The notes below the pieces were generated by a model. The model was not told the DNA's origin. It was given only the letters and a program-made list of their open reading frames with translations, and made no database searches. A stretch of DNA of 63,761 nucleotides, filler included, from Coriobacteriales bacterium (lineage in GTDB: Bacteria > Actinomycetota > Coriobacteriia > Coriobacteriales > UBA8131), in NCBI GenBank assembly GCA_031263105.1. It is 6 parts of 6 records of this genome, joined end to end, with 100 filler letters (N's around TTAATTAATTAA, not from the genome) between each part and the next. Parts side by side here need not be neighbours in the genome. Positions count along the whole stretch, not along the records: positions 1 to 14,570 come from JAISGJ010000053.1; positions 14,671 to 28,971 come from JAISGJ010000103.1; positions 29,072 to 46,517 come from JAISGJ010000109.1; positions 46,618 to 55,761 come from JAISGJ010000114.1; positions 55,862 to 60,528 come from JAISGJ010000046.1; 1 more part is not named here. One strand, given 5' to 3'. Below are positions 1,437 to 60,283 of this stretch, piece after piece. Positions within the stretch are counted from its first letter, which is position 1. Each line of letters begins with the position of its first letter. The position numbers were made by a program, and so were the translations under genes.

Positions 1437-1634
1437 GTTACTGCTCAGACCCCCACTGTCGTTCCGAGCGCAGCGAAGGTCCTTCTCTGCGCTCAGGATA
1501 AACTCCGCCGAGGAATCTTTGGACACGCAGTGTCCAACCGCAGGCCGAGAAACGCTTCTGGCCGCAGTCGACCGCTTGCGCGGTCGAAGATCCCTCGGCA
1601 GGCTCGGGACGACAGTGGGGGTGCGAACAGTAAC
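1437..1634. mobile_element. Palindromic MITE/REP-like element, copy 1
   Basis: GTTACTGCTCAGACCCCCACTGTCGTTCCGAGC...GCTCGGGACGACAGTGGGGGTGCGAACAGTAAC; flanks share only 4/8 nt. Confidence 0.9.
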
Positions 1635-1932
1635 ATTCACAACTTATGGTTCACTATGGTGTCAAAAATCTCATTCTGACACCGCCCGAACCGCGCTAAG
1701 ATACGTATGTCTGACTTTTACGTCGTCTCGAACGGGGAAGGCCGCCATGCGGTGCGCCTTTGTGAAACAGCACGATGCGACGTATGGAAGAAGCGGTAGG
1801 GCAATGCCTCCGGATACCGTCTTTTCGATGCAAGGGCTTCTTTACTTAGTGCGCTTTAGGGATGTGCTGCCATGAACGAGGCGCTGAAGGTGTTCCTGCC
1901 ACCTCCGTCTCCTTCAGGGAGGACGGCGGCGA

Positions 1933-2233
1933 CATGGCCTTCTCCCTCAACCGGGGAGAGGCCCTGCCCGGGAAGGTCGAGGTAGAGCTGGCGGATCCCC
2001 GCCTGGACAGGGCGCGCCTCTACCTCCTCAACCCGAGCACAGGGGCCTACCAGGAGCTCGCCAGCAAGACGGGCCCCGCCCTCGTGCTCGACGAGCCGGG
2101 CGAGTACCGCCTGACCGACGAGGAGATCGGCGCACTCACGATCGAGCCGCTCCTGGCAGCGGCGGCAGCCCTCGCCATCCTCGTGGGCGTCGCCCTGTTC
2201 GTCGCCTTCAGGCGGAGGTACCGGTTCTGGTAA
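1933..2233 (+). pseudogene. C-terminal fragment of a membrane-anchored protein ending RRRYRFW
   Basis: High-GC3 coding signal from ~1900, a C-terminal TM helix and basic tail, and no plausible full N-terminus. Confidence 0.5.
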
Positions 2234-2349
2234 GCTCTATAAAACCGACTGGCTCGTCGAGGCCCTTGCGAGCTTTGCAAGGGCCAAAGGCATCGTTGGT
2301 GGGCTTTGCGACTGCGGAGACAGTCTCCCATGTCGGCCCAGGTGCCGTC

Positions 2350-2517
2350 GTTACTGTTCACGCCCACTGTCATTCCGAGCGCAGCGAAGCGAAGCCGAGG
2401 AATCTTTGGGCGCGTCAGCGCCCGACCGGGCCAGTCGGGCACTGCGTGCCCGAGGATTCTCACGCTGTGCGCCCTTGCGGGCGCTCCGCTCAGAATGACA
2501 GTGGTGCGAACAGTAAC
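2350..2517. mobile_element. Palindromic MITE copy 2 (variant interior)
   Basis: GTTACTGTTCACGCCCACTGTCATTCCGAGC...GCTCAGAATGACAGTGGTGCGAACAGTAAC. Confidence 0.9.
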
Positions 2518-2642
2518 CGACAGCCGCATAGGAGGTACTGGTTCTGGTGAATGAGGGCTCGGGTGGCATCCGAAATAGTGTATCATGAGGGCACAAAGGG
2601 GCCGACGGCCCAGGTGAACGGGTAGACGGATGAGGAGGGGCC

Positions 2643-3833
2643 ATGAGAAGCGCTGTTGCAACTGTCCATGAGTTCGACGATGTGAGCGGGGCCGCGCGCG
2701 CGTTGCTCGACGCGGTCGAGGGACAGGTCGTGCTCCAGGAGCATTCCCTCGGCATCCTGTGGTGCGACGCCGATGCCGACGGGGCGGCCATAAGCGCCGA
2801 GATCGAGCGCGTGAGCGGCATCCCGGTCGCGGGCATGACCTCCTTGGCGCTGTTCTCGACGGAGGGCTACCAGGAGGGCGCCGTCGTCCTGACGGTGCTC
2901 ACCTCCGACGACGTCCGCTTCACCCTTGCGGCGACCGCACCGTTCGACGACTCCTACGAGCAGGAGATCGCCGACGTCTATCAACGGCTCCTGCCTGCCG
3001 ACGCGGCGCCCGACGAGCGCCCGGCGCTCATGTTCGCCTTCTGCCCGAACGGCATGCCCTTCTCGGGGGACAAGTACGCCGACATACTCGGTGCGCTCTC
3101 GGGCAACGCCCCCATCATCGGCGGCGTGAGCTCGGACGACTACGACTACGAGCGGGCCCGCGTGTTCCTGCGGGGCGAGGAGCACAGGGACGCGCTGGTC
3201 TGCGCCTGCGTCTGGGGCGAGGTCAGGCCGGTCTTCGCCATCCGCCACGTCACCTCGCAGTTCGCCGAGCGCATCCGGCGCGTCGCCGAGGCGAAGGACA
3301 ACCTGGTCTACCGCGTGGGCGACGAGACCTTCGTCGAGTACCTCGAGGGCTTCGGCCTGCGCACCGACGTCCCCGACCCGCTCGTGTCCTTCACCCAGTA
3401 CCCGATGATGCTCACGCAGGAGGACGGCGACGACGAGACGCCGATCATGCGCCATATCGCCGGCCTCGACCTCGAGACCGGCATGGGGACCTTCATAGCC
3501 GACGTCCCCGTCGGCGCACAGGCGAACATCTGCCTCGTGGGGCGCGACGACCTCAAGGTGTCCGCGCGCGAGTCCATGGACATCCTGCTCAAGAAGATGG
3601 GGGAGCAGACCGGGTACGAGTACTCCGCCGTCATCTGCATATCGTGCGGCGGCCGCGCCCTCATCCTGGGGAACGACGCCGATGCCGAGGGCACCATCCT
3701 GACCGGGATGCTCCCGGGGCGCATGACGCTCAGCGGCGCCTATGGCCTCGGGGAGCTGTGCCCCACCCGCTATGCCGACGGCGTGGCCACGAACCGCTTC
3801 CACAACTGCTCGATAACATTCTGCGCGCTGTAG
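2643..3833 (+). CDS. FIST N/C domain sensory protein (NosP-like)
   Basis: 396 aa with PIIGGVSSD, ISCGGR, GAYGLGELCP and FHNCSITF motifs of FIST_N/FIST_C; GAGGAGG RBS. Confidence 0.85.
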   Translation: MRSAVATVHEFDDVSGAARALLDAVEGQVVLQEHSLGILWCDADADGAAISAEIERVSGIPVAGMTSLALFSTEGYQEGAVVLTVLTSDDVRFTLAATAPFDDSYEQEIADVYQRLLPADAAPDERPALMFAFCPNGMPFSGDKYADILGALSGNAPIIGGVSSDDYDYERARVFLRGEEHRDALVCACVWGEVRPVFAIRHVTSQFAERIRRVAEAKDNLVYRVGDETFVEYLEGFGLRTDVPDPLVSFTQYPMMLTQEDGDDETPIMRHIAGLDLETGMGTFIADVPVGAQANICLVGRDDLKVSARESMDILLKKMGEQTGYEYSAVICISCGGRALILGNDADAEGTILTGMLPGRMTLSGAYGLGELCPTRYADGVATNRFHNCSITFCAL

Positions 3834-3840
3834 GGGCAGG

Positions 3841-5631
3841 GTGCGGGACGTGACGGCAGGACAGGAGACGCCGGAGGGCCGTACCGCCCCTCCCGATGCC
3901 CAGGAGGGCGCGGCCGAGCGCGAGCTCGTGAGGCTCCAGCGCCAGTACCGGAGGCTCGAGCGCAACTATAACGCCCTGGTCCTCATGCGGGAGCAGAACG
4001 AGCGCCTGCAGGCGCTCAACGACCAGGCAAAGGAGCTCTCGGACTTCTACAACCGCCTCCTGCTGAAGAACAGCTCCAGCATAACCTTCATGCTCGACAC
4101 CGACATGCTCTTTGCCCTGGGAAGCGACATGACGGCGGGCCTTTTGGGCTATGCGGACTCCCGGGAGATGGTGGGCCTGCCCTTCGCCAACGTCTTCGCG
4201 CGCTCCTTCCCCCAGGAGTGGATAGACTCGATGGCCGCACGGAGCAGGGAGGTCATGGCGACGGGGGCGGGGGTCTCCTCGGAGGGGGAGGTGACGCTCA
4301 ACGACGGGCAGGCCCTCGTCTTCCGCATGAGCGTCACGCCCGCGCAGGAGAAGGACGGCGTCTGCAGGGGCGTGGTCATCGTCATGGTGAACGTGACCGA
4401 GCTGATAGAGGCCACGAAGGCCGCGAAGGCCGCAAGCCTCGCGAAGGGCGAGTTCCTCTCCAACATGAGCCACGAGATGCGCACGCCGCTCAACGCCATC
4501 ATCGGCATGACCAGCATCGGGCGTGCGGCCGGCGACATCGAGAAGAAGGAGTACTGCCTCGACAGGATCGAGGACGCATCGCGGCACCTGTTGGGGGTCA
4601 TCAACGACATCCTCGACATGTCGAAGATAGAGGCCCAGAAGTTCACGCTCAGCGAGGCGGACTTCGCCTTTGCGAGGATGCTGCAACAGGTGATGACGCT
4701 CAACGGGCCGAGGGCGACCGAGCGGGAGCAGGTCTTCGAGGTGTCGGTGGACCCTGCGATACCAAGGTGCCTGCGGGGCGACGACCAGCGCCTTGCACAG
4801 GTCGTCACGAACCTCCTCTCCAACGCGATGAAGTTCACGCCCGAGGGGGGCGGCATCGAGCTTGGGGTGCGCCTGCTCGAGAGGGATGCGGCGCGCTGCA
4901 TGCTCGAGTTCCGGGTGTCAGACAGCGGCATCGGCATCAGCCCCGAGCAGCAGACCCTGCTGTTCGGCTCGTTCCAGCAGGCCGACACGAGCATAACGCG
5001 CCGCTTCGGCGGCACGGGCCTGGGGCTTGCCATCTCGAGGCAGATAGTCACCATGATGGGCGGCGAGATCTGGTTGGAAAGCGAGTTGGGGAAGGGTTCC
5101 ACCTTCTTCTTCACCGTCTCGCTGGGCGTGGGCGACGAGGCGGGGGCGGGCATGCGGAAAGACGCCGCCGAGGGCCACGACGGCTCCGGCGCCGCCGACG
5201 GCTCCGGCACCGCCCCTCACCCCCTTGGAGGGCCTGACGTGCAGGGCCGTTTCAAGGGCAGGACCCTTCTGCTCGCCGAGGACGTCGAGGTCAACCGCGA
5301 GATCGTGAACGCGCTTCTGGAGCCGACGGGCATCGGCATCGTCGAAGCGGCCAACGGTGCGGAGGCGGTGCGCCTGTTCTCCGGGGACCCCGGGCGCTTC
5401 GGGCTCATCTTCATGGACGTCCAGATGCCCGAGATGGACGGGCTGGAGGCGACGCGCACGATCCGTGCGATGGAGTCGCCTTGGGCACGCGACGTCCCCA
5501 TCGTCGCCATGACGGCCAACGTCTTCCGCGAGGACATCGAGCGGTGCCTCGCGGCCGGGATGGACGACCACGTGGGCAAGCCCCTCGACCTCGCCGAGGT
5601 CCTCGACAAGATGGGGCGTTATCTGGCCTGA
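3841..5631 (+). CDS. Cytoplasmic hybrid histidine kinase (coiled coil-PAS-HisKA-HATPase-REC)
   Basis: FLSNMSHEMRTPLN H-box, NLLSNAMKFT, DSGIG, GGTGLGL; REC domain LLAEDVEVN...FMDVQMPEMDG. Confidence 0.92.
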   Translation: MRDVTAGQETPEGRTAPPDAQEGAAERELVRLQRQYRRLERNYNALVLMREQNERLQALNDQAKELSDFYNRLLLKNSSSITFMLDTDMLFALGSDMTAGLLGYADSREMVGLPFANVFARSFPQEWIDSMAARSREVMATGAGVSSEGEVTLNDGQALVFRMSVTPAQEKDGVCRGVVIVMVNVTELIEATKAAKAASLAKGEFLSNMSHEMRTPLNAIIGMTSIGRAAGDIEKKEYCLDRIEDASRHLLGVINDILDMSKIEAQKFTLSEADFAFARMLQQVMTLNGPRATEREQVFEVSVDPAIPRCLRGDDQRLAQVVTNLLSNAMKFTPEGGGIELGVRLLERDAARCMLEFRVSDSGIGISPEQQTLLFGSFQQADTSITRRFGGTGLGLAISRQIVTMMGGEIWLESELGKGSTFFFTVSLGVGDEAGAGMRKDAAEGHDGSGAADGSGTAPHPLGGPDVQGRFKGRTLLLAEDVEVNREIVNALLEPTGIGIVEAANGAEAVRLFSGDPGRFGLIFMDVQMPEMDGLEATRTIRAMESPWARDVPIVAMTANVFREDIERCLAAGMDDHVGKPLDLAEVLDKMGRYLA

Positions 5632-5672
5632 CCCCCCCCCCTGCTCCCCTTACTCACAGAAGCTGTCCGCGA

Positions 5673-5781
5673 GTTACTGTACACACCCCTACTGTCATTC
5701 CGAGCGCAGCCGAGGAATCTTCATGGGACCCAAGGATTCCTCGGCTGCGCTCGGAATGACAGTAGGGGTGTGTACAGTAAC
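5673..5781. mobile_element. Palindromic MITE copy 3 (minimal form, perfect 47-bp arms)
   Basis: 47-bp perfect inverted repeat with a 15-nt loop; flanks GTCCGCGA / GTCCGTGA (7/8 TSD). Confidence 0.95.
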
Positions 5782-5821
5782 GTCCGTGAAGTGACATCTT
5801 CGTAACGCCGCGTGATAAAAC

Positions 5822-5850
5822 TTGACAGTCTATGACTTAGATTTTATGCT
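5822..5850 (+). promoter_or_regulatory. Sigma70-type promoter of the dnaK operon
   Basis: TTGACA-N17-TATGCT, ~90 bp upstream of the dnaK start. Confidence 0.7.
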
Positions 5851-5939
5851 ACATGACATGATAAGCGAATCCGTTTGCGCCGGACGTGCGAGGCAGCACG
5901 GGGCGGCAGGGTTCCTAGAGCGGAAAGGACTGGCACACT

Positions 5940-7862
5940 ATGGCAAAGATCTTGGGAATCGACTTGGGGACCACCAACTCGGCGATGGCGGTCATGGAAG
6001 GCGGCGAGCCGACCATCATAGTCAACGCGGAGGGCGACCGCACGACCCCCTCCGTCGTCGGCTTCCGCAAGGACGGGGAGCGGGTCGTCGGAAAGGCCGC
6101 CAAGAACCAGGCGGTCACCAATCCCGAGAACACGGTCTCCTCCATAAAGCGCTTCATAGGGCGCGACTACAGGGAGACCTCGGCCGAGCGCGACACCATC
6201 AGCTACAAGGTCAAGAACGGCAAGGACGGCCGCGTGCTCGTCGACATCGAGGGCAAGGACTTCACCCCCGAGGAGATCAGCGCGATGGTGCTGCAGAAGC
6301 TGAAGTCCGACGCGGAGAAGTACACCGGCTCCCCCATCAGCCAGGCGGTCATCACCGTGCCCGCCTACTTCAACGACTCCCAGCGCCAGGCGACCAAGGA
6401 CGCGGGCCGCATCGCCGGCCTCGAGGTCCTGCGCATCATCAACGAGCCCACGGCGGCGTCGCTGGCCTATGGGCTCGACAAGGCGGGCCAGGACGAGAAG
6501 ATACTCGTCTTCGACCTCGGCGGCGGCACCTTCGACGTGAGCGTGCTCGAGATATCCGACGGCGTCTTCGAGGTGCTCTCCACCTCGGGGGACAACCACC
6601 TCGGCGGCGACGACTGGGACCAGCGCGTCATCAAGTGGCTCGCCGAGAAGTTCCAGGCGGACACGGGCATCGACCTGCGCGTCGACAAGATGGCGCTCCA
6701 GCGCCTCAAGGAGGCCGCCGAGAAGGCGAAGATGGAGCTCTCCTCGACCCAGCAGACCAACATCAACCTGCCGTTCATCACGGCCGACGCGAACGGGCCG
6801 AAGCACCTCGACCTCACCCTGACCCGCACGGAGTTCGAGAAGGTCACCGACGATCTGCTCCAGCGCTGCAGGAAGCCCGTCGAGACCGCGCTCAAGGACG
6901 CTGGCCTCAAGATCGGCGAGGTCGCCGAGGTCATCCTCGTCGGCGGCTCCACCCGCATGCCAGCCGTCCAGGAGCTCGTGAAGAGGCTCACGGGCAAGGA
7001 CCCCAACATGAGCGTCAACCCCGACGAGGTCGTCGCGCTCGGCGCCGCCATCCAGGCGGGCGTGCTCGCAGGCGACGTCGAGGGCATCCTGCTGCTCGAC
7101 GTGACCCCGCTCTCGCTCGGCGTCGAGACCATGGGCGGCGTCATGACCCGGATGATCGAGCGCAACACCACCATCCCCACGCGCAAGACGGAGATATACT
7201 CGACCGCCTCCGACGGGCAGACCTCGGTGGAGATCCACGTGCTTCAAGGCGAGCGCGAGATGGCCGCAGGCAACAAGACCCTCGGCAAGTTCCACCTCAC
7301 GGACATCCCGCCCGCGCCGCGCGGCATCCCGCAGATCGAGGTCACCTTCGACATCGACGCGAACGGCATCGTCAACGTCAGCGCGAAGGACAAGGGCACG
7401 GGCAAGGAGCAGAAGATCACCATCTCCGGCTCCACGGCGCTCTCCGACGACGAGGTCGACCGCATGGTGAAGGACGCGGAGTCCCACGCCGAGGAGGACG
7501 CGGCGCGCAAGACGGAGGTCGAGGTCCGCAACAACGCGGACAGCCTCGTCTACTCCACGGAAAAGACCCTGGCAGACCTCGGCGATAAGGTCCCCGAGGA
7601 CACGAAGGCATCCGTCAACGAGGGCATCGAGGGCCTGAAGAAGGCGCTCGAAGGCTCCGACCTCGAAGCCGTCAAGTCCGAGACCGAGAAGCTCCAACAG
7701 CTCGGCTACAAGCTGGCCGAGATCGTCTACCAGGACGTCCAGGCCGCCTCCGAGGGCGGGCAGGCCGCCCCCTCCGGCACCGACGCCGGCGCGGATGCGG
7801 GGGATGTGGTCGAGGCCGACTACGAGGTCGTGGACGCCGAGCCCGAGTCCGAGGGCAAGTGA
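5940..7862 (+). CDS. dnaK: Chaperone DnaK
   Basis: [37 protein letters not shown]. Confidence 0.99.
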
Positions 7863-7864
7863 CC

Positions 7865-10176: not shown

Positions 10177-13020
<2,844 letters not shown>

Positions 13021-13075
13021 AATACCAAGGAATACCGAAGACACTGTCTGCAAGACCTGATTGGAAGGGGAAGTC

Positions 13076-14570
13076 ATGGAACATGCGAGGGTCGTGTCGC
13101 GCAAGGGCCTCGTCGGCCTGCTGACGATTGCTCTGGCGCTCTCTCTGGGCGGGGCGTCTCTGGCGTTCGCCGCCGAGCCGGAGGCGGGGGCCGCCGACGA
13201 GGCGCAGAGCGGCGGCCTCTCGCTGCTCGCCCTCAAGAGCGGCAGCTGCGGCGTCAGCCTCACCTGGCAGTTCGACACCGCGACCGGCGCGCTCACCATA
13301 TCCGGCACCGGCGCGATGACCCGCTACGACACCGCATCGAAGCCGACGCCCTGGCAGGCGTGGCGCAAGGACATCAGAACGGTCGTCATCTCGGAGGGCG
13401 TCACCTCGATAGGGGACAACGCCTTCTATGGATGCACCGCGCTCTCCTCCGTCACCATCCCGCGCACCGTCACGGAGATCGGGTACTATGCCTTCTTCGG
13501 CTGCACCGCGCTCAAGGCGATCACGATCCCCAGCGGCGTCACCTCGATAGGGACCGCCGCCTTCTCGACCTGCACCGCGCTCTCCTCCATCACCATCCCG
13601 CGCAGCGTCAGGGAGATAGGGAACCATGCCTTCCAGGGCTGCCGCTCCCTCGTCTCTGCGTCCGTCCCCGGCACGGTGGCCTCGACGGGGGAGTACGCCT
13701 TCCTCGGCTGCACCTCGCTTGCCTCCGTCACGGTGGGCAACGGCGTAAGGACGATAGGGAGCTACGCCTTCTTCGGCTGCACCTCCCTTCCCTCCATCGC
13801 CCTCCCGGTCAGCGTCACCTCGATAGGCGACCATGCCTTCGAGTACTGCACCTCCTTCACCTCCTTCACCATCCCCAGCAGGGTCACCTCGATAGGGGAC
13901 TTCATCTTCTCCGGCTGCTCTTTCTTGGAGACGGTCGACGTCCCCGCCTCCGTCAGGTCGATAGGCCCCTTCGCCTTCTACTACTGCACCTCCCTCACCT
14001 CGCTCGACATCCCCAAAGGGGTCAGGTCGATAGAGGCGTCTACCTTCCGTGCCTGCACCTCGCTTGCCTCGGTCACCATCCCGAACACGGTCACGACGAT
14101 TAAGATCGACGCCTTCTCCCATTGCACGTCCCTCACCTCCGTCGACCTGCCGAGCAGCGTCACCTCGCTGCAGGGCAACGCCTTCTACCGCTGCAGCACC
14201 CTCAAGTCCATCACCATCCCGGCTTCGGTGAAGTCGATAGGGAAGGACGCCTTCTACCTCTGCGAGGAGCTCACCATCACCGGTGCGGCCAACTCGGCGG
14301 CGTCCCGGTATGCGGCCGGCGCCAGGCCCAAGATACGCTTTGCGACGATGAGCACCCAGGTCTGCACCGTGAAGTTCGATGCCAACGGCGGCACGGTGGG
14401 CGCGTCCAAGGCCGCGAGCGTCAAGCGCAACAAAGGCGCTGCGCTCGGCAAGCTCCCGGTGGCCAAGCGCACCGGCTACACCTTCCTCGGCTGGTACACC
14501 GGCAAGGCGAAGGGCTCGAAGGTCGCCGCCACCACGAAGGTGCCGAAGGACCTCGTCCTCTACGCCCGCT
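13076..14570 (+). CDS. BspA-like leucine-rich-repeat surface protein with an InlB B-repeat (3' truncated by contig end)
   Basis: Signal peptide, ~13 TpLRR repeats (IPxSVTSIGxxAFxGCTSL), then FDANGG...RTGYTFLGWYT. Confidence 0.9.
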
Positions 14571-18149: not shown

Positions 18150-18207
18150 TAGCAACCGGCCGTCAGACACGTTGCTGAGAACGTTGTCTCAAGTAGCAAA
18201 ACAAATT
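18150..18207 (+). repeat. Imperfect direct repeat, left copy (possible att-like site)
   Basis: TAGCAAC..AGACACGTTGCTGAGAACGTTGTCTCAAGTAGCAAAACAAATT matches 22600-22658. Confidence 0.75.
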
Positions 18208-18230
18208 ACGTGCTCACACCCCACTGTCAT

Positions 18231-18892
18231 TGCCATAAAGAAACCACAGGCTCTGCCTGTGGAGTAACAGGGGTTTACCATAAAGCAAAGTCTTCTGTCC
18301 TAAGATGTATCTGCGATGGTTTGGTCACAGACAGAAAGGACAGAAGACGATGCCGGAATCGAGTCTAGCACACACTGTGTGGGACTGTACCTATCACGTC
18401 GTGTGGACACCGAAGTACAGAAGGCGTGTCCTGTTCGGACAGTGCAGGAGACAACTGACAGACATCTTGAGGGAGTTGGCGGACAAAAAGCCCGGTGTCG
18501 AGATAGTGCAGGGCGCCATGTGTCCCGACCACGTGCACCTCTGCTTGAGGATACCGCCAAAATACTCGGTCTCGAACATCATGGGGTACCTGAAGGGCAA
18601 AAGCGCGATGGAGCTTGCGCAGCGCATACCCGAGCAGCGCAGGAACCGCGAGAAGGAGAAGTCGTTTTGGGCGAGAGGCTGCTACGTGAGCACGGTCGGC
18701 ATGAACGAGGCCGTGATCAGGAAGCACATCAGACAGCAGCAGAAGGCCGACATGATGGAGTAGGGCTGCTCGGACATGCCCCCTTTGGGGGCGGCTGGTA
18801 TACGATGCACCGAACCATCGCGGCTTTGCCGCCGCCGGTAAAGGCACTTCAGTGCCCGTTCAAAGCCCCCGGCTATGCCGGGGGATCATTAC
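18231..18892 (+). mobile_element. IS200/IS605-family element (tnpA only)
   Basis: Subterminal hairpins CCACAGGC-TCT-GCCTGTGG (18244-18262) and CCCCCGGC-TAT-GCCGGGGG (18866-18884); no TSD; precise removal restores CTGTCATTCCGAGC. Confidence 0.9.
18350..18763 (+). CDS. tnpA: IS200-type Y1 transposase TnpA (catalytic Tyr apparently mutated)
   Basis: YHVVWTPKYRR, HUH motif DHVHL, PPKYSVS..GYLKGKS, FWARGCYVSTVG, and IRKHIRQQ where Y-x-x-x-Q is expected. Confidence 0.93.
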   Translation: MPESSLAHTVWDCTYHVVWTPKYRRRVLFGQCRRQLTDILRELADKKPGVEIVQGAMCPDHVHLCLRIPPKYSVSNIMGYLKGKSAMELAQRIPEQRRNREKEKSFWARGCYVSTVGMNEAVIRKHIRQQQKADMME

Positions 18893-19157
18893 TCCGAGCC
18901 CCGCCGAGGAATCCTTGGACACGCAGTGTCCAACGGCAGGTCGGGAGGCCCTTCGACCTGCGGTCGACCGCTGGCGCGGTCGAGGATTCCTCGGCGGGCT
19001 CGGAATGACAGTGAGGCCCGGGATGGCAGTGGGACCCGGGATGCCAGTGGGGTATCCGTGGGGGTGTGAATCGTAACCCCCAAGACACCATGTACCAATA
19101 CACCATACGAGAATCGAGGGGGTCGATGCGGGTATATTCAACAACCTATGCTCCGCA

Positions 19158-20441: not shown

Positions 20442-20483
20442 CTCGGCGGAGCTCGGAATGACAGTGGGGGTGTGAACAGTGAC
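20442..20483. mobile_element. MITE copy 5 (right arm only)
   Basis: CTCGGCGGAGCTCGGAATGACAGTGGGGGTGTGAACAGTGAC. Confidence 0.85.
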
Positions 20484-20607: not shown

Positions 20608-21500
20608 GTGAGCGCAGCCGAGATTGTCATAAGCGTACAAAACGTAACAAAGAGCTACGGTGGCTTTATCTTGGGTCCCATCAGCCTTTCGGTGAAACGA
20701 GGGGAGATAATGGGGCTTGTTGGAGAAAACGGCGCAGGCAAAACTACGTTATTGAGCATTATTCTAAACAGGCGTCTGCCTACGAGTGGAGCCGTGCTGA
20801 TCGAGGGCGCTCCTGTTCAGGCTGCCTTAGGGCGCATGGGATTTGTCATGGACTGCCATGACTATCACGGCAATTTTTCTCTTCAGGAGATCGACTCCTA
20901 TATTGACGCCATCTACCGCGATTGGAACCGTGCAGCGTTTCACGACCTGATAGAGCGCCTCCATATCGAAACGAGCAAAAAATCGTTACACGTCACACCC
21001 CCACTGTCATTCCGAGCTCCGCCGAGGAATCTTTGGACACGCAGTGTCCAACGGCAGGTCAGGGGGCCCTTCGACCTGCGGTCGACCGCTGGCGCGGTCG
21101 AGGATTCCTCGACAGGCTCGGAATGACAGTGGGGTGTGACGTGTAACAAAAAATCGACGAAATGTCACGTGGAACAAAATCCAAGGCGATGCTTGCCATT
21201 GCGCTTGTCCATAGTCCGAGCATTCTCGTCCTTGACGAAGTCACTTCTGGGCTCGATCCGTCTGTGCGTCGCGAAGTATTGGACTTGTTGCAAGACAAGG
21301 CGCACGACGAGAAAACGACAATCCTCTTTTCAACGCATCTTCCAAATGACATTGAGAAGATTGCCGACAGCGTCTGCTTTCTCAATAAGGGGCAAGAGTT
21401 GTTCAATCTGCCAATCGGACAGCTACAAGGACTGTACCGGCAGTACCGTTCGGACGATCTTGACGACCTTGTCTTTGCTCTTATGAACAAAGAAGTGTGA
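20608..21500 (+). pseudogene. ABC transporter ATP-binding subunit interrupted by a MITE
   Basis: Walker A GENGAGKTT lies before the insertion; signature MSRG, Walker B ILVLDE and STH loop lie after it. Confidence 0.9.
20985..21147. mobile_element. MITE copy 6
   Basis: GTTACACGTCACACC...GGTGTGACGTGTAAC; perfect TSD AAAAAATC (20977-20984 / 21148-21155). Confidence 0.97.
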
Positions 21501-22413: not shown

Positions 22414-22532
22414 CCGAGCAAGAGTCCAAGCAACTGCTGCTTGCCGCCCTCTCGTTCCTGGACGGCAAGCTCGCAGAGGCGGAAAGCAACTCTGTCGAGG
22501 TGCGTATCGTGGGCGGCTTTGCCCTGATCCTT
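22410..22532 (+). pseudogene. N-terminal fragment of a nucleotidyltransferase-like (AbiEii/DUF6036-like) protein
   Basis: LLAALSFLDGKL...EVRIVGGFALIL motif, then runs directly into MITE sequence. Confidence 0.55.
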
Positions 22533-22590
22533 CCGGGCGCTCGAACCCAAAGATTCCTCGGCTGCGCTCGGAATGACAGTAGGGGTGCGC
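22531..22590. mobile_element. MITE copy 7 (right half only)
   Basis: TTCCGGGCGCTCGAACCCAAAGATTCCTCGGCTGCGCTCGGAATGACAGTAGGGGTG, matching copies 9 and 3. Confidence 0.85.
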
Positions 22591-22599
22591 TGTCACACC

Positions 22600-30692: not shown

Positions 30693-30987
30693 GTTACAGA
30701 GTTCACACCCCCACAGATACCCCACTGCCACCCCGAGCCCCACTGTCGCCCCGAGCCCCACTGTCATTCCGAGCCCCACTGCCGCCCCGAGCCCCACTGC
30801 CACCCCGAGCCCCACTGTCATTCCGAGCCCCACTGTCGCCCCGAGCCCCACTGTCATTCCGAGCCTGTCGAGGAATCCTCGGCCGCGCCAGCGGTCGACC
30901 GCAGGTCGAAGGGCCCCTTGGCCTGCCGTTGGACACTGCGTGTCCAAGGGTTCCTCGGCGGAGCTCGGGATGACAGTGGGGGTGAAC
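30693..30987. mobile_element. MITE copy 8 with eight tandem 18-bp arm units
   Basis: CCCACTGYCRYYCCGAGC x8 at 30721-30864; perfect TSD GAGGAAGG (30685-30692 / 30988-30995). Confidence 0.95.
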
Positions 30988-37438: not shown

Positions 37439-37765
37439 GTTACTGTTCACTCCCTCTATTGTCATCCCGAGCCCCCACTGTCATCCCGAGCCCCCACTGT
37501 CATCCCGAGCCTGTCGAGGGATCCTCGGCCGCGCAAGCGGTCGACTGCGGCCAGAAAGCGCTTCGGCCCGCGCTCGGCTGCTTCGCGTTCCGTGGGCCTG
37601 TCGGTTCCATGGGCTCACCCGCTGCTTCGCAGCTTCGCCCCGCGACAGTCCACCGGACTGTCGCGCCGGCCTCGCTGAAAACAGCCCACTGGGCTGTTTT
37701 CCGGGCGCTCGGACCCAAAGATTCCTCGCGAGGCTCGGAATGACAGTGGAGGTGTGAACAGTAAC
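37439..37765. mobile_element. MITE copy 9 (long form with extra internal palindromes)
   Basis: GTTACTGTTCAC...GTGAACAGTAAC; TSD GCTTCCTC / ACTTCCTC (7/8); three tandem arm units. Confidence 0.93.
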
Positions 37766-45016: not shown

Positions 45017-45180
45017 GTTGCTGTTCACACCCCCACTGTCATTCCGAGCTCCGCCGCGGAATCTTTGGACACGCTGTGTCCAACGGCAGGTCAGGGGGTC
45101 CTTCGACCTGCGGTCGACCGCTTGCGCGGTCGAGGATCCCTCGACAGGCTCGGAATGACAGTGGGGGTGTGAACAGTAGC
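45017..45180. mobile_element. MITE copy 10
   Basis: Perfect TSD CCTGCGGA (45009-45016 / 45181-45188). Confidence 0.97.
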
Positions 45181-46415: not shown

Positions 46416-46517
46416 GTTACACGTCACACCCCCACTGTCATCCCGACCCCCCACTGTCATCCCGACCCCCCACTGTCATTCCGACCCCCCACTGTCATCC
46501 CGACCCCCCACTGTCAT
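46416..46517. mobile_element. MITE copy 11, left arm with tandem 19-bp units (contig end)
   Basis: GTTACACGTCACACC then CCCACTGTCATYCCGACCC repeated ~5 times. Confidence 0.9.
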
Positions 46518-53232: not shown

Positions 53233-53451
53233 GGTTTACTTGTATTCCGAGCCCTTCGGTTGCGCTCAAGGTGAATTTCGGGGCGCAAGCCCCGGAACCG
53301 AGGAATCTTTGAGCGCCTTAGCGTTCAACCGGGCCGGTTGGCTGCTTCGCAGCCAAGGATTCCTCACGCTCGGGCTTCGCCCTCGGTTCGGAATGACAGT
53401 AGGCCGGGCTTCGCCCTCGGTTCGGAATGACAGGGGTGCGACGAGTAAGCC
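53233..53451. mobile_element. MITE/REP variant copy 13
   Basis: ATTCCGAGC...GAGGAATCTTTG...CAAGGATTCCTC...CGGAATGACAG with duplicated right arm; divergent termini GGTTTACTTGT / ACGAGTAAGCC. Confidence 0.8.
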
Positions 53452-53467
53452 CTTGGCGACATCTGGG

Positions 53468-55549
53468 TCAGGAACCGGTGGTGGCGTCGGTTCTGCTTTC
53501 GTCTCCGGTGTTGGTTCCGCCGCCGGTGCCGCTTCCGCCGCCGGTGTTGGCGCCGTCGTCGCTCCCGCCGGTGCTGGGGCCGGGGTCGGGGTCAGGGCCG
53601 GGGTCGGGCATGGTGCCGATATAGACGGTCACGGTGCTGTTCTTGGAGACGGCGGCGCCTTTCGCAGGGTCCTGTCTGACGACCTTGTCGACCTGCGAGG
53701 CCCTTCCAACGGACTCGCTCTGGTACTCGACGAACAGGCCGAGGGCCGCAAGCTCGCTCGCCGCCTCCTCGCGGGTCTTCCCTGCGAGGTTGGGCACGGT
53801 CACGGACTCCGGCCCGAGGGAGAGCGTGAGGGTCACGGTCGTGCCCTTGTCCTGCGTGGCGCCGGACGGGGGCGTCTGGCGTATGACGACGTCGACGGCC
53901 TTGTCGCTGTGCTCGGCCTCGGCGTACTCGACCTCGAAGCCTGCGTCCTTGAGGTATTGGACGGCCTGGTCCTTCGGCTGGTCCACGACGCCGGGCACGA
54001 CGCCGGTCTCCTTGCCCTTGGACACGTAGAAGGTGACGGTCGACCCCTCGCTGATCGTCCCGCCCGCCGCCTGGTCCTGGGCGCAGACGCTGCCTGCGGG
54101 CACGGTGGCGTCGAAGCGCTCGCCGCCGTTGGAGGGCTGCAGGTTGAGGCCCTCGAGCTTCGTCTTCGCGGCGTCGGGCGAGAGGCTGTAGAGGTTGGGC
54201 ACCTCGACCTGTTTGGGCGGCTCGGGCCCCGAGGAGAGAACCAGCTCCACCGCCGTCCCCCTGTTCACCTCGGTGTCTGCGGAAGGCTTCGTCTGGATGA
54301 CGCGGTCCTTCTCCATGGTCGCGTGTGCCTCGTAGGACACCGCGCCGGTGGCGAGCTTCGCGTCGCTTATCGCCTTGCGCGCCTCCTGCTCGGTTGCGCC
54401 GACGACGTTGGGCACCCGGGCCTTCTCCTCGCCTTTGGGCATGAGGAAGTAGACGGCGGCGGCGATGGCGGCGATGCAGACTATGACGGCGATGACCGTG
54501 ATGACGGCCGCTCGCGTGCGGTTCTTTTTCTTCTTCTGTTCCTCGGCGGCGCGGGCAGACGAACGGACGTTGAGGGGAGACGCCGAGGAGACCGAGGGCA
54601 TGACGGCGGTATGGGCGGGAGGCTGTAGGCCGTCCTGTGCGCCGTCGGCGCCGATGACCGGCAGCACGCCCGCCGCCCCCATGACGCGCGTGACCGCCGC
54701 AGGCTGCTCGACGCCCGTGTCGACGGGGCGTCCTGCGAGGTAGTTGTTCAGTGCGGTGCGCATCTGCTCGGCTGTGGCGTAGCGCTCAAGGGGGTCTTTG
54801 GCCAGCGCCCTGAGGATGATCGCCTCGAGCTCAGGGTCGATGGCGGGGTTGATCTGCGCGGGCGGCACCGGCTGCTCGTTGACCTGCTTGACCGCGACCG
54901 CGACGGCATCGGGCGCGTCGAAGGGCACCTGGCCCGTCGTGGCCTCGTAGAGGACGACGCCGAGGGAGTAGATGTCGGTGGCGGAGGTGAGGGGCCTGCC
55001 CTGCGCCTGTTCGGGCGAGACGTAGTATGCGGTGCCGAGCACGCTGCCGGTCTGGGTCATCGTCGAGCCGTTGGCGCGTGCGATGCCGAAGTCCATGACC
55101 TTCGCGTTGCCGTCCGGCTGCACCATGATGTTGTGGGGCTTGATGTCGCGGTGGATGATGTCGTAGCTGTGGGCGACGCTGAGGGCCGCGCAGACCTGCG
55201 AGGCGATCTCTGCCGCCTTGTGCTTGTTGATGGCGCCGCGCTGCTGGATCGCGGTCTTGAGGTCGGTGCCGCGCACGTACTCCATGACGATGAAGTAGGT
55301 GTTGTCTGCCTCGTCGTGGCCCCAGTCGTAGATGTTGACGATGTAGGGGCTTTGCAGGTTGGCCGCAGACTGCGCCTCCTGCTTGAAGCGCGCGGCGAAG
55401 GTGGGGTCGCTCGCGTACTGCGGCAGCATCACCTTGACGGCGACCGTGCGGCCCAACACCTCGTCGGTCGCCTTGTAGACCTCGGCCATGCCGCCGATGC
55501 CGATCTTCTCGATCAGCCTGTAACGATTGCCGAACACTCTGTCTAACAC
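53468..55549 (-). CDS. pknB: PASTA-domain Ser/Thr kinase
   Basis: IGIGGMAEVY, HRDIKPHN, DFGIA, TM helix, four PASTA repeats. Confidence 0.96.
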   Translation of the reverse strand: MLDRVFGNRYRLIEKIGIGGMAEVYKATDEVLGRTVAVKVMLPQYASDPTFAARFKQEAQSAANLQSPYIVNIYDWGHDEADNTYFIVMEYVRGTDLKTAIQQRGAINKHKAAEIASQVCAALSVAHSYDIIHRDIKPHNIMVQPDGNAKVMDFGIARANGSTMTQTGSVLGTAYYVSPEQAQGRPLTSATDIYSLGVVLYEATTGQVPFDAPDAVAVAVKQVNEQPVPPAQINPAIDPELEAIILRALAKDPLERYATAEQMRTALNNYLAGRPVDTGVEQPAAVTRVMGAAGVLPVIGADGAQDGLQPPAHTAVMPSVSSASPLNVRSSARAAEEQKKKKNRTRAAVITVIAVIVCIAAIAAAVYFLMPKGEEKARVPNVVGATEQEARKAISDAKLATGAVSYEAHATMEKDRVIQTKPSADTEVNRGTAVELVLSSGPEPPKQVEVPNLYSLSPDAAKTKLEGLNLQPSNGGERFDATVPAGSVCAQDQAAGGTISEGSTVTFYVSKGKETGVVPGVVDQPKDQAVQYLKDAGFEVEYAEAEHSDKAVDVVIRQTPPSGATQDKGTTVTLTLSLGPESVTVPNLAGKTREEAASELAALGLFVEYQSESVGRASQVDKVVRQDPAKGAAVSKNSTVTVYIGTMPDPGPDPDPGPSTGGSDDGANTGGGSGTGGGTNTGDESRTDATTGS

Positions 55550-55644
55550 GTCAGTCTCCCAAAGGTCGATGCTTTGAACATAGTATACCCTACCTGAGAA
55601 AACGCCGATTCGTTCGGCGCCTTCCTCGCTCCCTCGCTCATCCG

Positions 55645-55761
55645 GTTACTGTTCACGCCCCCACTGTCATTCCGAGCGCAGCGAAGCGGAGTCGAGGAAT
55701 CTTTGGTCGCGAAGCGACCAACAGTAGGTCGGAGGGGGCCTTCGACCTACGGTCGACCGCT
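55645..55761. mobile_element. MITE copy 14 (cut by contig end)
   Basis: GTTACTGTTCACGCCCCCACTGTCATTCCGAGC...GAGGAATC. Confidence 0.9.
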
Positions 55762-55861
55762 NNNNNNNNNNNNNNNNNNNNNNNNNNNNNNNNNNNNNNN
55801 NNNNNTTAATTAATTAANNNNNNNNNNNNNNNNNNNNNNNNNNNNNNNNNNNNNNNNNNNN
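55762..55861. other. Artificial contig linker
   Basis: N-TTAATTAATTAA-N. Confidence 0.98.
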
Positions 55862-55961
55862 ACGGCGTCCTCGCCGTCCCGCCCTCGTGCCGCGCGGCGG
55901 CGGGCGCGGGACGGCGAGGCCGCCGTCCCCGACGGACGGGGCACACGAGGGCGCCCACATC

Positions 55962-56248
55962 GTTACTGACACTATGTGTCCACACCCTCACTGTCATTCC
56001 GAGCCCCGCCGAGGAATCCTTGGACACGCAGTGTCCAACGGCAGGTCGGGGGGCCTTTCGGCCTGCGGTCGACCGCTGGCGCGGTCGAGGATCCCTCGGC
56101 AGGCTCGAGATGACAGTGGGGGGTGTGAACATTTGGACACGCAGTGTCCAACAGCAGGTCGCAGGGCCCTTCGACCTGCGGTCGACCGCTTGCGCGGCCG
56201 AGGATCCCTCGGCAGGCTCGGGATGACAGTGGGGGCGTGAACAGTGAC
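55962..56248. mobile_element. MITE copy 15 with internal tandem duplication of the body and right arm
   Basis: Perfect TSD CCCACATC (55954-55961 / 56249-56256). Confidence 0.95.
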
Positions 56249-56293
56249 CCCACATCCCCGCCGCAACCAATCGGCGCTTCCTTGCCCTTGTAT

Positions 56294-56307
56294 CGAACAG
56301 ACGTTCG
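56294..56307. promoter_or_regulatory. LexA (SOS/Cheo) box upstream of uvrA
   Basis: CGAAC-AGAC-GTTCG. Confidence 0.85.
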
Positions 56308-56431
56308 TAGTACACTCTTACGCGATACGAACGACACGCGATTTAGTACAATAAGGGTTTGCGTAAAATCGTCGGGGCGCGGGGGCAGGAAAACGCCTTT
56401 CCTGCGTCCCGCTTCTTCCAAGGAGCAGCCG

Positions 56432-59284
<2,853 letters not shown>

Positions 59285-59328
59285 GCGCATGGGCGCGTCG
59301 ATCTCGCAGAGGGGGAGAGGGGCGTCTT

Positions 59329-59661
59329 TCAGCGCAGGTCGAAGACGCCCCGTATGCTCGTCATGATCGAGCGCATCGCGGCGTCGTCCGCATAGCCGAG
59401 GAGGCGGTATCCGCGCTGTCTGACGTCGAGGGTGCGCAACCCCTCCACAAAGGCGAAGCCCGACACCTCGTCCGCATCGATCCGCACATGAAGCGGATAC
59501 CCGTTGTCCGTCGAGGAGACGGGCACCACGGCAACGAGGCTCGAGCGCGAGTTGAAGCCGAATCCGCTCACGACCACCGCAGGCCGGAGCCTGGCCGGCT
59601 CATGTCCTCTGGCCGGCGTGAAGTCGATCTCGATCAGGTCTCCCTGCTCAAGGGCGTTCAC
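59329..59661 (-). CDS. PemK/MazF-family toxin
   Basis: QGDLIEIDFTPARGHEP..RPAVVVS...FN. Confidence 0.9.
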   Translation of the reverse strand: MNALEQGDLIEIDFTPARGHEPARLRPAVVVSGFGFNSRSSLVAVVPVSSTDNGYPLHVRIDADEVSGFAFVEGLRTLDVRQRGYRLLGYADDAAMRSIMTSIRGVFDLR

Positions 59662-59972
59662 GGGATCACCTCTGCCCCGACATCCTCGCCCCAGTCGAAT
59701 TCAGCGGGCTGATACGCTCCCGTATGGTTGGCGAACAGCTCGTCGATCGAGACGAACGGCGCATCACCATAAGAGCGGTGCATTCCCGTCGGGCGGATGA
59801 GGATGTACTCGCCGTCCCTGTCCGTCCCTGAAGTCATCGTGAGCCTTGAGCCGACTCCGATCCCCGCCTTGTCGCACATCTTCTTCGGGATGCGCACCGC
59901 GCGCGAGGTCCCCCAGGAACTCAGGCTCGTGTCGGCCTCCATGGGCCGAGGGCGAACTGCTGCGTCTTTCAT
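59658..59972 (-). CDS. AbrB/MazE-family antitoxin
   Basis: SWGTSRAVRIPK...EFDWGEDVGAEV; overlaps the toxin start. Confidence 0.88.
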   Translation of the reverse strand: MKDAAVRPRPMEADTSLSSWGTSRAVRIPKKMCDKAGIGVGSRLTMTSGTDRDGEYILIRPTGMHRSYGDAPFVSIDELFANHTGAYQPAEFDWGEDVGAEVIP

Positions 59973-60087
59973 GTCCGTTTCCTCTCTGGAAGATATATTG
60001 AGAGCTATCTTATCAGAGCGGAGGGGCAAAGTAAAGCCGGATTGCCCTCGCAACAGCACTCGCAACAGCACTGAATGCAAGTCGGAT

Positions 60088-60252
60088 GTTGCTGTTCACA
60101 CCCCACTGTCATCCCGAGCCTGTCGAGGGATCCTCGACCGCGCCAGCGGTCGACCGCAGGTCGAGGGGCCCTGCGACCTGCCGTTGGACACTGCGTGTCC
60201 AAAGATTCCTCGGCGGAGCTCGGAATGACAGTGAAGGTGTGACCTCAGTAAC
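60088..60252. mobile_element. MITE copy 16
   Basis: Perfect TSD AGTCGGAT (60080-60087 / 60253-60260). Confidence 0.97.
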
Positions 60253-60283
60253 AGTCGGATCCCGGTCGTGGTAGCATATCGCC

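What the first reader, a model, noticed from the sequence alone, without database searches (positions are those of the whole stretch)
1437..60260. Abundant palindromic MITE family: REP-like core inside GTTAC...GTAAC termini with 8-bp target duplications
Seen: about 16 full or partial copies in 63 kb (1437, 2350, 5673, 18205, 20442, 20985, 22531, 30693, 37439, 45017, 46416, 46618, 53233, 55645, 55962, 60088). Each shares GTTAC-N-CACACCCCCACTGTCATTCCGAGC...GAGGAATC and/or its mirror image. Five copies have perfect, copy-specific 8-bp flanking duplications (AAAAAATC, GAGGAAGG, CCTGCGGA, CCCACATC, AGTCGGAT) and two have 7/8 matches. Known: TGTCATTCCGAGC...GAGGAATC resembles the CGTC/TGTC-tagged palindromic repeats, whose spreading mechanism is unclear. 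HUH/RAYT-type transposition makes no 8-bp TSD, whereas staggered-cut DDE transposases do (IS66, IS256, ISL3 and IS1595 all give ~8 bp). Inference: this is a recently active non-autonomous element that carries a REP doublet and is mobilised in trans by an enzyme not in this window. It could be an undescribed family.
Basis: partly seen in the sequence, partly recalled or inferred. Interest (0 to 1): 0.82.

Follow-up and report, generated by a model that had tools for sequence, protein, structure and literature searches.

The report
Abundant IS66-type MITE family
The repeats are a real family of small gene-less jumping DNA elements that fills about 3.5% of a termite-gut bacterial genome and carries the end sequences of IS66-type insertion sequences, so it is a striking example of an ordinary kind of selfish DNA.

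Summary
All 16 reported loci exist, and all five perfect and both 7/8 flanking 8-mers were verified.

The window is six contigs of a 250-contig termite-gut Coriobacteriales MAG joined by N linkers. Genome-wide there are 572 termini, against 0 in a reversed-genome control. Of 262 candidate pairs, 69 have 8-bp duplications with at most one mismatch, against 0 of 262 when shifted. Blocks of the family cover 3.47% of the assembly.

Paralogous uninterrupted sites carry the 8-mer once.

The outer 12-20 nt of the element match the inverted repeat of a divergent IS66-family clade:
- 20 of 20 nt lie beside an IS66 transposase gene in a genome of the same order.
- 2.1-3.0 kb metagenome elements share these ends, and nine have perfect 8-bp duplications.

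No IS66 transposase is in this assembly. The IS200-type gene inside the copy at 18205 is a secondary insertion.

Verdict: a non-autonomous element mobilised in trans by an IS66/ISBst12-like transposase. It is a new member of a known kind. This scan has reported IS66-type MITEs in several other genomes.

The parts
1437..1634 (.). MITE copy, 198 bp, both termini present, no intact target duplication (ATTCTTTG / ATTCACAA)
2350..2517 (.). MITE copy, 168 bp, both termini present, no target duplication
5673..5781 (.). Shortest MITE form, 109 bp, a near-perfect palindrome. Duplication is 7 of 8 (GTCCGCGA / GTCCGTGA).
   Evidence: DNA fold -63.6 kcal/mol, z -19.2
18205..19076 (.). MITE copy (left end ATTAC..., right end ...GTGAATCGTAAC) split by an IS200-type insertion. 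No target duplication.
18232..18893 (+). IS200-type insertion sequence, 662 bp, inserted between TGTCATT and CCGAGC of the repeat core. It has subterminal hairpins of its own. It is not the mobiliser of the MITE.
   Evidence: A second, diverged copy on contig C168 sits at the same spot of the core.
18347..18763 (+). tnpA of the IS200-type element (138 aa from the second ATG; the ORF as listed is 18305-18763)
   Evidence: Pfam Y1_Tnp PF01797, E 3.1e-33
20442..20483 (.). Solo right-arm fragment ending in GTGTGAACAGTGAC
20985..21147 (.). MITE copy of the main 163-bp type. Perfect 8-bp duplication AAAAAATC.
   Evidence: DNA fold -71.4 kcal/mol, z -14.8
22531..22592 (.). Right-arm fragment without the outer inverted repeat
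30693..30987 (.). MITE copy with an array of 18-bp sub-repeats (about 30720-30864) in its left arm and a shortened right terminus. Perfect duplication GAGGAAGG.
37439..37765 (.). MITE copy, 327 bp, with three 19-bp sub-repeats and the optional ~65-nt hairpin module. Duplication is 7 of 8 (GCTTCCTC / ACTTCCTC).
45017..45180 (.). MITE copy, 164 bp. Perfect duplication CCTGCGGA.
46416..46517 (+). Left terminus plus a 19-bp sub-repeat array, cut by the end of contig C198
46618..46765 (-). Right terminus plus a sub-repeat array at the start of contig C199
53233..53449 (.). Degenerate copy with diverged termini
55645..55761 (+). Left part of a copy, cut by the end of contig C199
55962..56248 (.). 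Composite copy, 287 bp, with two interior modules. Perfect duplication CCCACATC.
60088..60252 (.). MITE copy of the main type in the opposite orientation. Perfect duplication AGTCGGAT.

Best explanation

Each tip carries about 20 nt (GTTACTGTTCACACCCCCAC). This is the inverted repeat of a divergent IS66-family clade resembling the ISBst12 group. That clade encodes one large DDE transposase with a small ORF upstream. The rest of the MITE is a long palindrome. It consists of a TGTC-tagged core (TGTCATYCCGAGC...GAGGRATC), one to three small hairpins, optional inserts, and tandem 18-21-nt sub-repeats that expand at the junction between the inverted repeat and the core.

A transposase supplied in trans would bind the two tips and cut the target with an 8-bp stagger. 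Repair of the gaps would then leave the copy-specific 8-bp duplication.

Shown: the ends, the duplication, empty paralogous sites, identity of the ends to IS66-type elements that make 8-bp duplications, and absence of such a transposase from this assembly.

Inferred: that an IS66-type enzyme did the moving; that it sits in an unassembled part of the genome or population, or has been lost; that copy-and-paste transposition, as reported for ISDge4, explains the copy number; and that the sub-repeat arrays grow by replication slippage.
For: Numbers.
- 572 termini in 2.9 Mb, against 0 in the reversed genome.
- The family covers 100,935 bp in 551 blocks, 3.47% of the assembly, on 190 of 250 contigs.

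Target duplication.
- Among all 262 plus/minus terminus pairs 60-12,000 bp apart, 51 have a perfect 8-bp duplication and 18 have one mismatch.
- The same test shifted outward by 8 nt gives 0 of 262.

Empty sites.
- The copy at C15:8449-8610 (duplication CAGAGCTG) sits in another small repeat. The uninterrupted copies of that repeat, on C145 (100% over 67 nt) and C232 (97%), carry the 8-mer once.
- The copy at C172:7345-7507 is nested in another copy's core and duplicates ATTCCGAG, which occurs once per normal core.

Link to IS66.
- The outer 24-mer (up to 3 mismatches) was found in 1 of 400 other genomes of the order (G392). There 20 of 20 nt lie about 66 nt past the stop codon of an IS66 transposase gene (PF03050, E 1.5e-18), facing outward.
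- In G401 a contig ends in GTGAACAGTAAC upstream of a 568-aa IS66 transposase.
- In 80 metagenome loci there are 58 candidate full-length pairs, 2.1-3.0 kb, that begin and end with GTTAC-N2-3-T[ACT]CA. Nine of them have perfect 8-bp duplications abutting GTTAC. One (L042) has GTTACTGTTCACACCCC at both ends.
- The positions that are conserved in the MITE (1-5 and 9-13) and those that vary (6-8) are the same as in the IS clade.

Literature, passages read.
- ISDge4 (ISBst12 group) has ends GTAACTGCTCAGCA and an 8-bp direct repeat, and its donor copy is retained (PMC12898284).
- ISPpa5a and ISPpa7 (IS66 family) give 8-bp repeats (PMC3281130).

Relatives. A copy in G023 (genus g6) has related ends and a perfect duplication AAGCCTAT.
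Against: - No IS66-family transposase was found in this assembly, either by PF03050 or with the G392 protein. The assembly is 86% complete and has 250 contigs.
- No pair longer than 541 bp is backed by a duplication. The partner in this organism is therefore unseen.
- The best end match comes from another family of the order, and that element is cut by a contig end.
- Identity between the MITE and the IS ends stops after 17-20 nt, whereas the MITE arms match each other for about 46 nt.
- The IS transposases score below NCBIfam's IS66 equivalog cut-off (about 157 against 180 bits). They are only 27-28% identical to named ISGst1/ISGka4-type proteins.
- Only 9 of 58 candidate full-length IS pairs show an intact duplication. 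Many of the 58 are the same insertion seen in several samples.
- Of 289 core pairs, only 118 have a recognisable outer repeat on both sides, 126 on one side and 45 on neither. Many copies are therefore decayed or incomplete.
- No two copies of the main type are more than 97.5% identical.
Confidence: 0.85

Rival explanations
1. The repeats are REP-type units spread by a tyrosine (HUH, Y1) transposase, either a RAYT-like protein or the IS200-type TnpA found inside two copies.
For: - Four Y1_Tnp genes are in the genome.
- Two of them lie inside copies of the repeat, including window 18347-18763.
- The core carries a TGTC tag and forms hairpins.
- A RAYT-like gene on C191 is flanked by inverted arrays of short TGTCAA-type repeats.
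Against: - The 8-bp duplications and the single-8-mer empty sites are not what HUH single-strand transposition is known to leave. That rests on established knowledge of IS200/IS605.
- The two Y1 genes inside repeats belong to about 660-bp IS200-type elements with their own subterminal hairpins, inserted at one spot of the core.
- The RAYT-like genes on C191 and C165 are not flanked by this family. The C191 flank repeats are local: 6 of 8 matches to its 20-mer lie on C191 itself.
- The tips match IS66 inverted repeats.
Confidence: 0.04
2. The element is a MITE, but it is moved by another DDE family that also makes 8-bp duplications (IS256, ISL3, IS1595, IS6 and the like).
For: The 8-bp duplication alone does not single out IS66. 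The true partner in this organism has not been seen.
Against: - PF00872, PF01610, PF12762 and PF13610 give no match in the assembly.
- The only DDE genes found are three IS5-type ones, and the repeat does not flank them.
- The termini match IS66-clade ends over 12-20 nt, with the same conserved positions.
Confidence: 0.05
3. It is a two-layer element. The IS66-type tips account for only part of the spread, and the palindromic core and its small modules also multiply by a separate, unknown route.
For: - 45 of 289 core pairs have no recognisable outer repeat and 126 have one on a single side.
- Related cores occur in relatives with different or no GTTAC tips.
- An optional ~65-nt module recurs: 73 exact copies of a 13-nt anchor.
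- Tandem duplications of tip plus flank exist.
Against: - Many of the 'tip-less' cases are arrays or variant tips that my criteria missed, or simple truncations.
- No second kind of duplication or boundary was found.
- Decay of old copies explains the same counts.
Confidence: 0.06

Closest known systems
IS66 family, single-transposase (ISBst12-like) elements such as ISDge4, ISGst1 and ISGka4
   Same: - 8-bp target duplication.
- Terminal inverted repeat of the form GT(A/T)ACTG(C/T)TCA. The ISDge4 end GTAACTGCTCAGCA matches the MITE tip at 9 of 14 positions.
- A DDE_Tnp_IS66 transposase lies beside identical tips in relatives and in metagenomes.
   Different: - The MITE has no transposase.
- The cognate IS clade is divergent: 27-28% identity to ISGst1/ISGka4-type proteins and below the NCBIfam equivalog cut-off.
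- It starts GTTAC rather than GTAAC.
- It carries a conserved small upstream ORF with no Pfam or NCBIfam match.
Bacterial MITEs in general
   Same: Short, gene-less and palindromic, with inverted-repeat tips shared with an IS, a fixed-length duplication, hundreds of copies, and a mostly intergenic position. By a crude gene call, 43 of 69 have both flanks non-coding.
   Different: - A high share of the genome (3.47%).
- A modular interior with three covarying hairpins.
- Expanding 18-21-nt sub-repeat arrays inside the arms.
- Sequence unrelated to any family in Rfam or to any record in the plasmid collection.
CGTC/TGTC-tagged palindromic repeats (Di Nocera et al. 2013, PMC3733652)
   Same: - A TGTC tag directly before a stem that starts AT.
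- Units paired head to head.
- No dedicated tyrosine transposase flanked by them (for the published features).
   Different: - Published units have 8-9-bp stems, 4-5-nt loops and a CCA-like tail within one unit. Here one arm gives only about 5 Watson-Crick pairs, and the pairing is between arms.
- The paper's text has no occurrence of 'duplication' or 'target site'.
- Here the units lie inside IS66-type tips with 8-bp duplications.
REP/RAYT systems (REPtrons)
   Same: Abundant hairpin repeats, and Y1 (HUH) genes present in the same genome.
   Different: - No RAYT gene is flanked by this family.
- No GTAG tag.
- An 8-bp duplication is present.

Membership tests
MITE (IS-derived non-autonomous element) | Small size and no transposase gene | tested here: met
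   The 69 duplication-backed copies are 109-541 bp. That is too short for the roughly 535-568-aa transposases of the cognate IS.
MITE (IS-derived non-autonomous element) | Terminal inverted repeats | tested here: met
   572 termini against 0 in the control. GTTAC is exact in 361 of them.
MITE (IS-derived non-autonomous element) | Target-site duplication of fixed length, made on insertion | tested here: met
   51 perfect and 18 one-mismatch 8-mers among 262 pairs, against 0 of 262 in the shifted control. Paralogous empty sites carry one 8-mer.
MITE (IS-derived non-autonomous element) | An autonomous IS with the same ends exists | tested here: met
   This holds in other genomes and metagenomes only: G392 (20 of 20 nt), G401, L042 and others. 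It does not hold in this assembly.
IS66 family as the mobiliser | DDE_Tnp_IS66 transposase encoded between such ends | tested here: met
   PF03050 is above its cut-off for G392 (E 1.5e-18), L042 (1.7e-17) and L105 (6.8e-22).
IS66 family as the mobiliser | Score above NCBIfam's IS66 equivalog model NF033517 | tested here: not met
   Scores of 122-159 bits against a cut-off of 180, though E is down to 2.4e-46. The clade is divergent.
IS66 family as the mobiliser | 8-bp direct target repeat | tested here: met
   MITE. Full-length IS in metagenomes: 9 of 58 candidate pairs are perfect. Literature.
IS66 family as the mobiliser | Transposase present in the same genome | tested here: not met
   There are 0 matches to PF03050 and to the G392 protein in G000. 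The assembly is 86% complete, and at least 130 termini face a contig end within 600 bp.
REP/RAYT system | RAYT gene flanked by the repeats in inverted orientation | tested here: not met
   The two Y1 genes inside repeats are IS200-type insertions. The RAYT-like genes on C191 and C165 have no copy of this family at their sides.
REP/RAYT system | Insertion without target duplication | tested here: not met
   An 8-bp duplication is present.
CGTC/TGTC-tagged REP superfamily | Unpaired CGTC or TGTC tag before a stem that starts AT | tested here: met
   TGTC followed by ATTCC or ATCCC is seen in the sequences.
CGTC/TGTC-tagged REP superfamily | 8-9-bp stem, 4-5-nt loop and CCA-like tail within one unit | tested here: inconclusive
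   By reading the arms, one arm gives ATTCC/GGAAT (5 pairs) around a 12-13-nt stretch. The predicted folds pair arm with arm. A single arm was not folded on its own.

The most novel reading that the evidence does not exclude
The TGTC-tagged palindromic core is a true relative of the 'orphan' CGTC/TGTC repeats, for which no transposase is known. On this reading, such repeats spread as cargo between IS66-type inverted repeats. That would give a testable mechanism for a repeat superfamily whose propagation was left open in 2013. The ATTGC-for-ATTCC variant of the core occurs in a neighbouring genus with the same kind of tips and a perfect 8-bp duplication. This shows the core-plus-tip design is older than this genome.
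Probability: 0.12. Interest if true: 0.6.

Novelty: new member of a known kind. Interest (0 to 1): 0.35.

Why it matters
- One repeat family makes up about 3.5% of this termite-gut Coriobacteriales genome. At least 130 of its roughly 500 contig ends lie within 600 bp of a terminus of the family. The element therefore largely explains why the assembly is so fragmented.
- The work ties the family to a concrete enzyme class. It also brings to light a divergent IS66 clade with GTTACNGTTCA ends and a small upstream ORF that is common in metagenome assemblies.
- It adds one more phylum to the IS66-type MITEs that this scan keeps finding.
- The covarying three-hairpin interior and the IS200-type element that twice landed at the same base of the core are useful material for studying how hairpin DNA attracts or aids transposition.

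Tried and rejected
- A fuzzy-regex scan of the genome timed out. I replaced it with ungapped scans.
- I looked for an autonomous copy among ORFs just inside unpaired termini. The only recurrent real-looking proteins were membrane proteins with a C-terminal helix-turn-helix. I read these as LuxR-type by eye and did not test that.
- The genome self-comparison gave 112 non-self hits of 350 bp or more. The 60 longest that I listed are all at or below 91% identity, so no multi-copy IS is assembled.
- Pfam searches of the genome for IS256, ISL3, IS66, IS1595, rve and IS240-type transposases found nothing. The three DDE_Tnp_1 hits are IS5-type and are not flanked by the repeat.
- The genome-collection scan with the 24-nt core found one record outside this genome.
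- The Rfam gathering search found only two tRNAs. blastn against plasmids found nothing.
- Only one run (X1, termite gut, probably the source sample) holds the stretch. Laying its contigs gave no clean joint that skips exactly one element among the 15 joints listed (38 more were not shown). Polymorphic empty sites were therefore neither shown nor excluded. Depth in element-bearing bins was about 2,000-2,900 against about 20 elsewhere. That figure sums all contigs and is not a copy number.
- The first IS end search used a 3-nt anchor on 43 of the 80 loci and mis-set several boundaries. A motif-anchored scan of all 80 loci replaced it.


Full report
**What the window is.** The window is not one stretch of DNA. 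It is six contigs (C196, C197, C198, C199, C202, C212) of a 250-contig, 2,905,931-base assembly with 64.5% G+C. The contigs are joined by N runs with a TTAATTAATTAA linker. The genome search gives the assembly as 86% complete and 6.5% contaminated. The only outside record with the 24-nt core is titled a Coriobacteriales MAG. The one public run that holds the stretch is labelled termite gut metagenome.

**The observation.**
- The core 13-mer occurs 30 times in the window against 0.09 expected. The 24-mer occurs 20 times against 0.00 expected.
The five perfect and two 7/8 flanking 8-mers sit exactly against the termini.
- Three loci are cut by contig ends, two are one-armed fragments, one is degenerate, and one (18205-19076) is interrupted by another element.

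**Genome-wide picture.**
- Ungapped scans with four variants of the outer 24-27 nt (up to 5 mismatches) give 572 distinct termini, and 0 in the reversed genome. GTTAC is exact in 361.
- The 16-nt core (up to 1 mismatch) occurs 1,191 times, against 8 for the reversed pattern.
- A BLAST with the 69 validated copies covers 100,935 bp in 551 blocks. That is 3.47% of the assembly, on 190 of 250 contigs.
- Of 284 termini without a nearby partner, 130 face a contig end within 600 bp. The family is therefore a main cause of the fragmented assembly.
- Adjacent pairs of 600 bp or less number 144. Their length mode is 160-169 bp, with 50 pairs.

**The 8-bp duplication is real and arises on insertion.**
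- Among all 262 plus/minus terminus pairs 60-12,000 bp apart, 51 have identical flanking 8-mers and 18 differ at one base. With both 8-mers shifted outward by eight bases, the count is 0 of 262.
- In six of 67 in-silico empty sites, something elsewhere in the genome spans the junction. I read three of them through.
- The copy at C15:8449-8610 (duplication CAGAGCTG) lies in another small repeat. Copies of that repeat on C145 and C232 are uninterrupted and carry the 8-mer once.
- The copy at C172:7345-7507 is nested in another copy's core. It is flanked by ATTCCGAG, which occurs once in a normal core.
Orthologous empty sites could not be tested, because the nearest genomes belong to other genera.
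- The 51 perfect duplications show no strong consensus, apart from C or G at the last position in 43 of 51. The 50-bp flanks average 57% G+C, against 64.5% for the genome.
- With a crude GC3-based gene call, 43 of 69 copies have both flanks non-coding, 20 are mixed and 6 are coding on both sides. Divergent gene pairs (19) outnumber convergent ones (4).

**Anatomy.**
- The shortest form (109 bp) is a near-perfect hairpin (-63.6 kcal/mol, z -19.2).
- The main 163-bp form is a long stem closing three small hairpins (-71.4 kcal/mol, z -14.8).
- In an alignment of 43 oriented copies of this type, 97.7% of cells in 59 predicted pairs are standard pairs. Thirteen pairs show changes on both sides. These include tip positions 9-10 against 162-163, so the two ends vary together. 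Relatedness of the copies can produce much of this, so it is not proof of selection.
- Longer copies carry tandem 18-21-nt sub-repeats at the junction of tip and core, with up to 10 core units in one array.
- Some also carry an optional insert of about 65 nt. A 13-nt anchor of that insert occurs 73 times.
- Pairwise identity of the 43 copies has a median of 88.4%. Nearest-neighbour identity has a median of 94.5% and a maximum of 97.5%. The family is not brand new.

**Which enzyme: what this genome holds.**
- Searches of this genome with Pfam models for IS256, ISL3, IS66, IS1595, rve and IS240 found nothing.
- Three IS5-type genes are not flanked by the repeat.
- No pair longer than 541 bp has a duplication.
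- No long near-identical repeat is assembled.

**Which enzyme: the link to IS66.**
- The outer 24-mer (up to 3 mismatches) was then sought in 400 other genomes of the order. One match came up, with no match to the reversed pattern in any genome.
- In that genome (G392), 20 of 20 nt (GTTACTGTTCACACCCCCAC) lie about 66 nt past the stop of a gene fragment that matches DDE_Tnp_IS66 (E 1.5e-18) and face outward. This is where the right inverted repeat of the element should be.
- A 36%-identical transposase in G401 sits on a contig that ends in GTGAACAGTAAC on its upstream side.
- A metagenome scan with an alignment of three such proteins kept 80 loci. A motif-anchored scan of all 80 found 58 candidate pairs, 2.1-3.0 kb, that begin and end with GTTAC-N2-3-T[ACT]CA.
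- Nine of the 58 have perfect 8-bp duplications directly against GTTAC (L045, L060, L091, L105, L107, L112, L113, L115, L116). L042 has GTTACTGTTCACACCCC at both ends.
- Many of the other pairs are one insertion seen in several samples, or show swapped flanks. That is as expected after recombination between copies.
- Two full-length transposases pass Pfam's IS66 cut-off. All four tested fall below NCBIfam's equivalog cut-off. The nearest annotated proteins, ISGst1- and ISGka4-type, are 27-28% identical.

**Which enzyme: published support.**
- Passages of PMC12898284 report ISDge4 of the ISBst12 group with ends GTAACTGCTCAGCA, an 8-bp direct repeat and retention of the donor copy.
- A table in PMC3281130 lists 8-bp repeats for two captured IS66 elements.
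- The MITE tip matches the ISDge4 end at 9 of 14 positions. Its conserved and variable positions are those of the IS clade.

**The tyrosine transposases.**
- Four Y1_Tnp genes exist in the genome.
- Two belong to IS200-type elements of about 660 bp, one at window 18232-18893 and one on C168. They are diverged from each other, yet both are inserted between TGTCATT and CCGAGC of the core. Each has its own subterminal hairpins. They are guests in the repeat and not its engine.
- Two longer RAYT-like genes (C191, C165) are not flanked by this family. The one on C191 has local inverted arrays of short TGTCAA-type repeats.

**Distribution.**
- In 33 other genomes of the family, the core (up to 1 mismatch) is seen in 9 genomes at 1-14 matches each, including 5 of the 6 genomes of genus g6.
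- One g6 copy has related tips, a core with ATTGC in place of ATTCC, and a perfect duplication AAGCCTAT.
- The design is therefore older than this genome. The expansion is specific to this genome among those searched.

**Comparison with what is known.**
- The element works like, and qualifies as, an IS-derived MITE of the IS66 family. Its sequence family was not found in Rfam, the plasmid collection or the papers searched.
- It shares the TGTC tag and the AT-first stem with the CGTC/TGTC repeats of Di Nocera et al. (passages read). It does not show their 8-9-bp stem within one unit.
- This scan has reported IS66/ISBst12-type MITEs with 8-bp duplications in at least seven other genomes of other phyla. 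I read those notes after reaching the same conclusion here, and I did not test them.

**Verdict.** The family is a new member of a known kind. Its abundance and modular hairpin interior make it a good specimen, but not a surprise.

Noticed in passing
window 18232-18893; also G000 contig C168 about 12400-13290: Two diverged IS200-type elements (about 660 bp, tnpA of about 138-152 aa) are inserted at the same position of the MITE core, between TGTCATT and CCGAGC. This suggests the element targets this abundant hairpin motif.
   Followed up: partly
G000 contig C191 2500-4300: A 264-aa RAYT-like Y1 gene is flanked by inverted arrays of short repeats (GCGTGACAAAG on one side, CTCTGTCAA with CAGTACCGTCCC on the other). 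Nearly the same ~130-nt stretch is found on both outer sides, as if a cassette had been inserted with a long duplication.
   Followed up: partly
window 13061-14570: Eleven tandem 69-bp repeats (13397-14263) lie in an ORF that runs to the contig end. It reads as a signal-peptide protein with leucine-rich-type repeats (IP.SVTSIG..AF.GCTSL). The family label is from reading the translation and was not tested.
   Followed up: no
G000 contigs C215, C144, C96/C114, C216, C22, C14, C78: The outer 21-32 nt of the tip are duplicated in tandem, sometimes together with 35-65 nt of adjacent unique DNA (tip-spacer-tip). The break is always right after CACTGTC. No explanation was tested.
   Followed up: no
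G000 C15:8333-8666, C145:18915-19078, C232:3-125: A different small palindromic repeat (about 180 bp, GATTGCCCC...GGGGCAATC) is present in at least three copies. One of them hosts a MITE insertion.
   Followed up: no
L038, L039, L042 (upstream of the IS66-type transposase): The IS clade carries a conserved small ORF of about 100-128 aa (M.IVYQ.DKRSGITY.YES...). It ends at or just before the transposase start and has no Pfam or NCBIfam match.
   Followed up: partly
window 37439-37765 and 73 places in G000: An optional ~65-nt hairpin insert sits inside one of the interior hairpins of the MITE.
   Followed up: partly
G000 contig ends, e.g. C160:1-114, C220:1-121, C53:1-181: Long G or C homopolymer runs lie directly beside repeat copies at contig ends. 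They are probably assembly artefacts.
   Followed up: no
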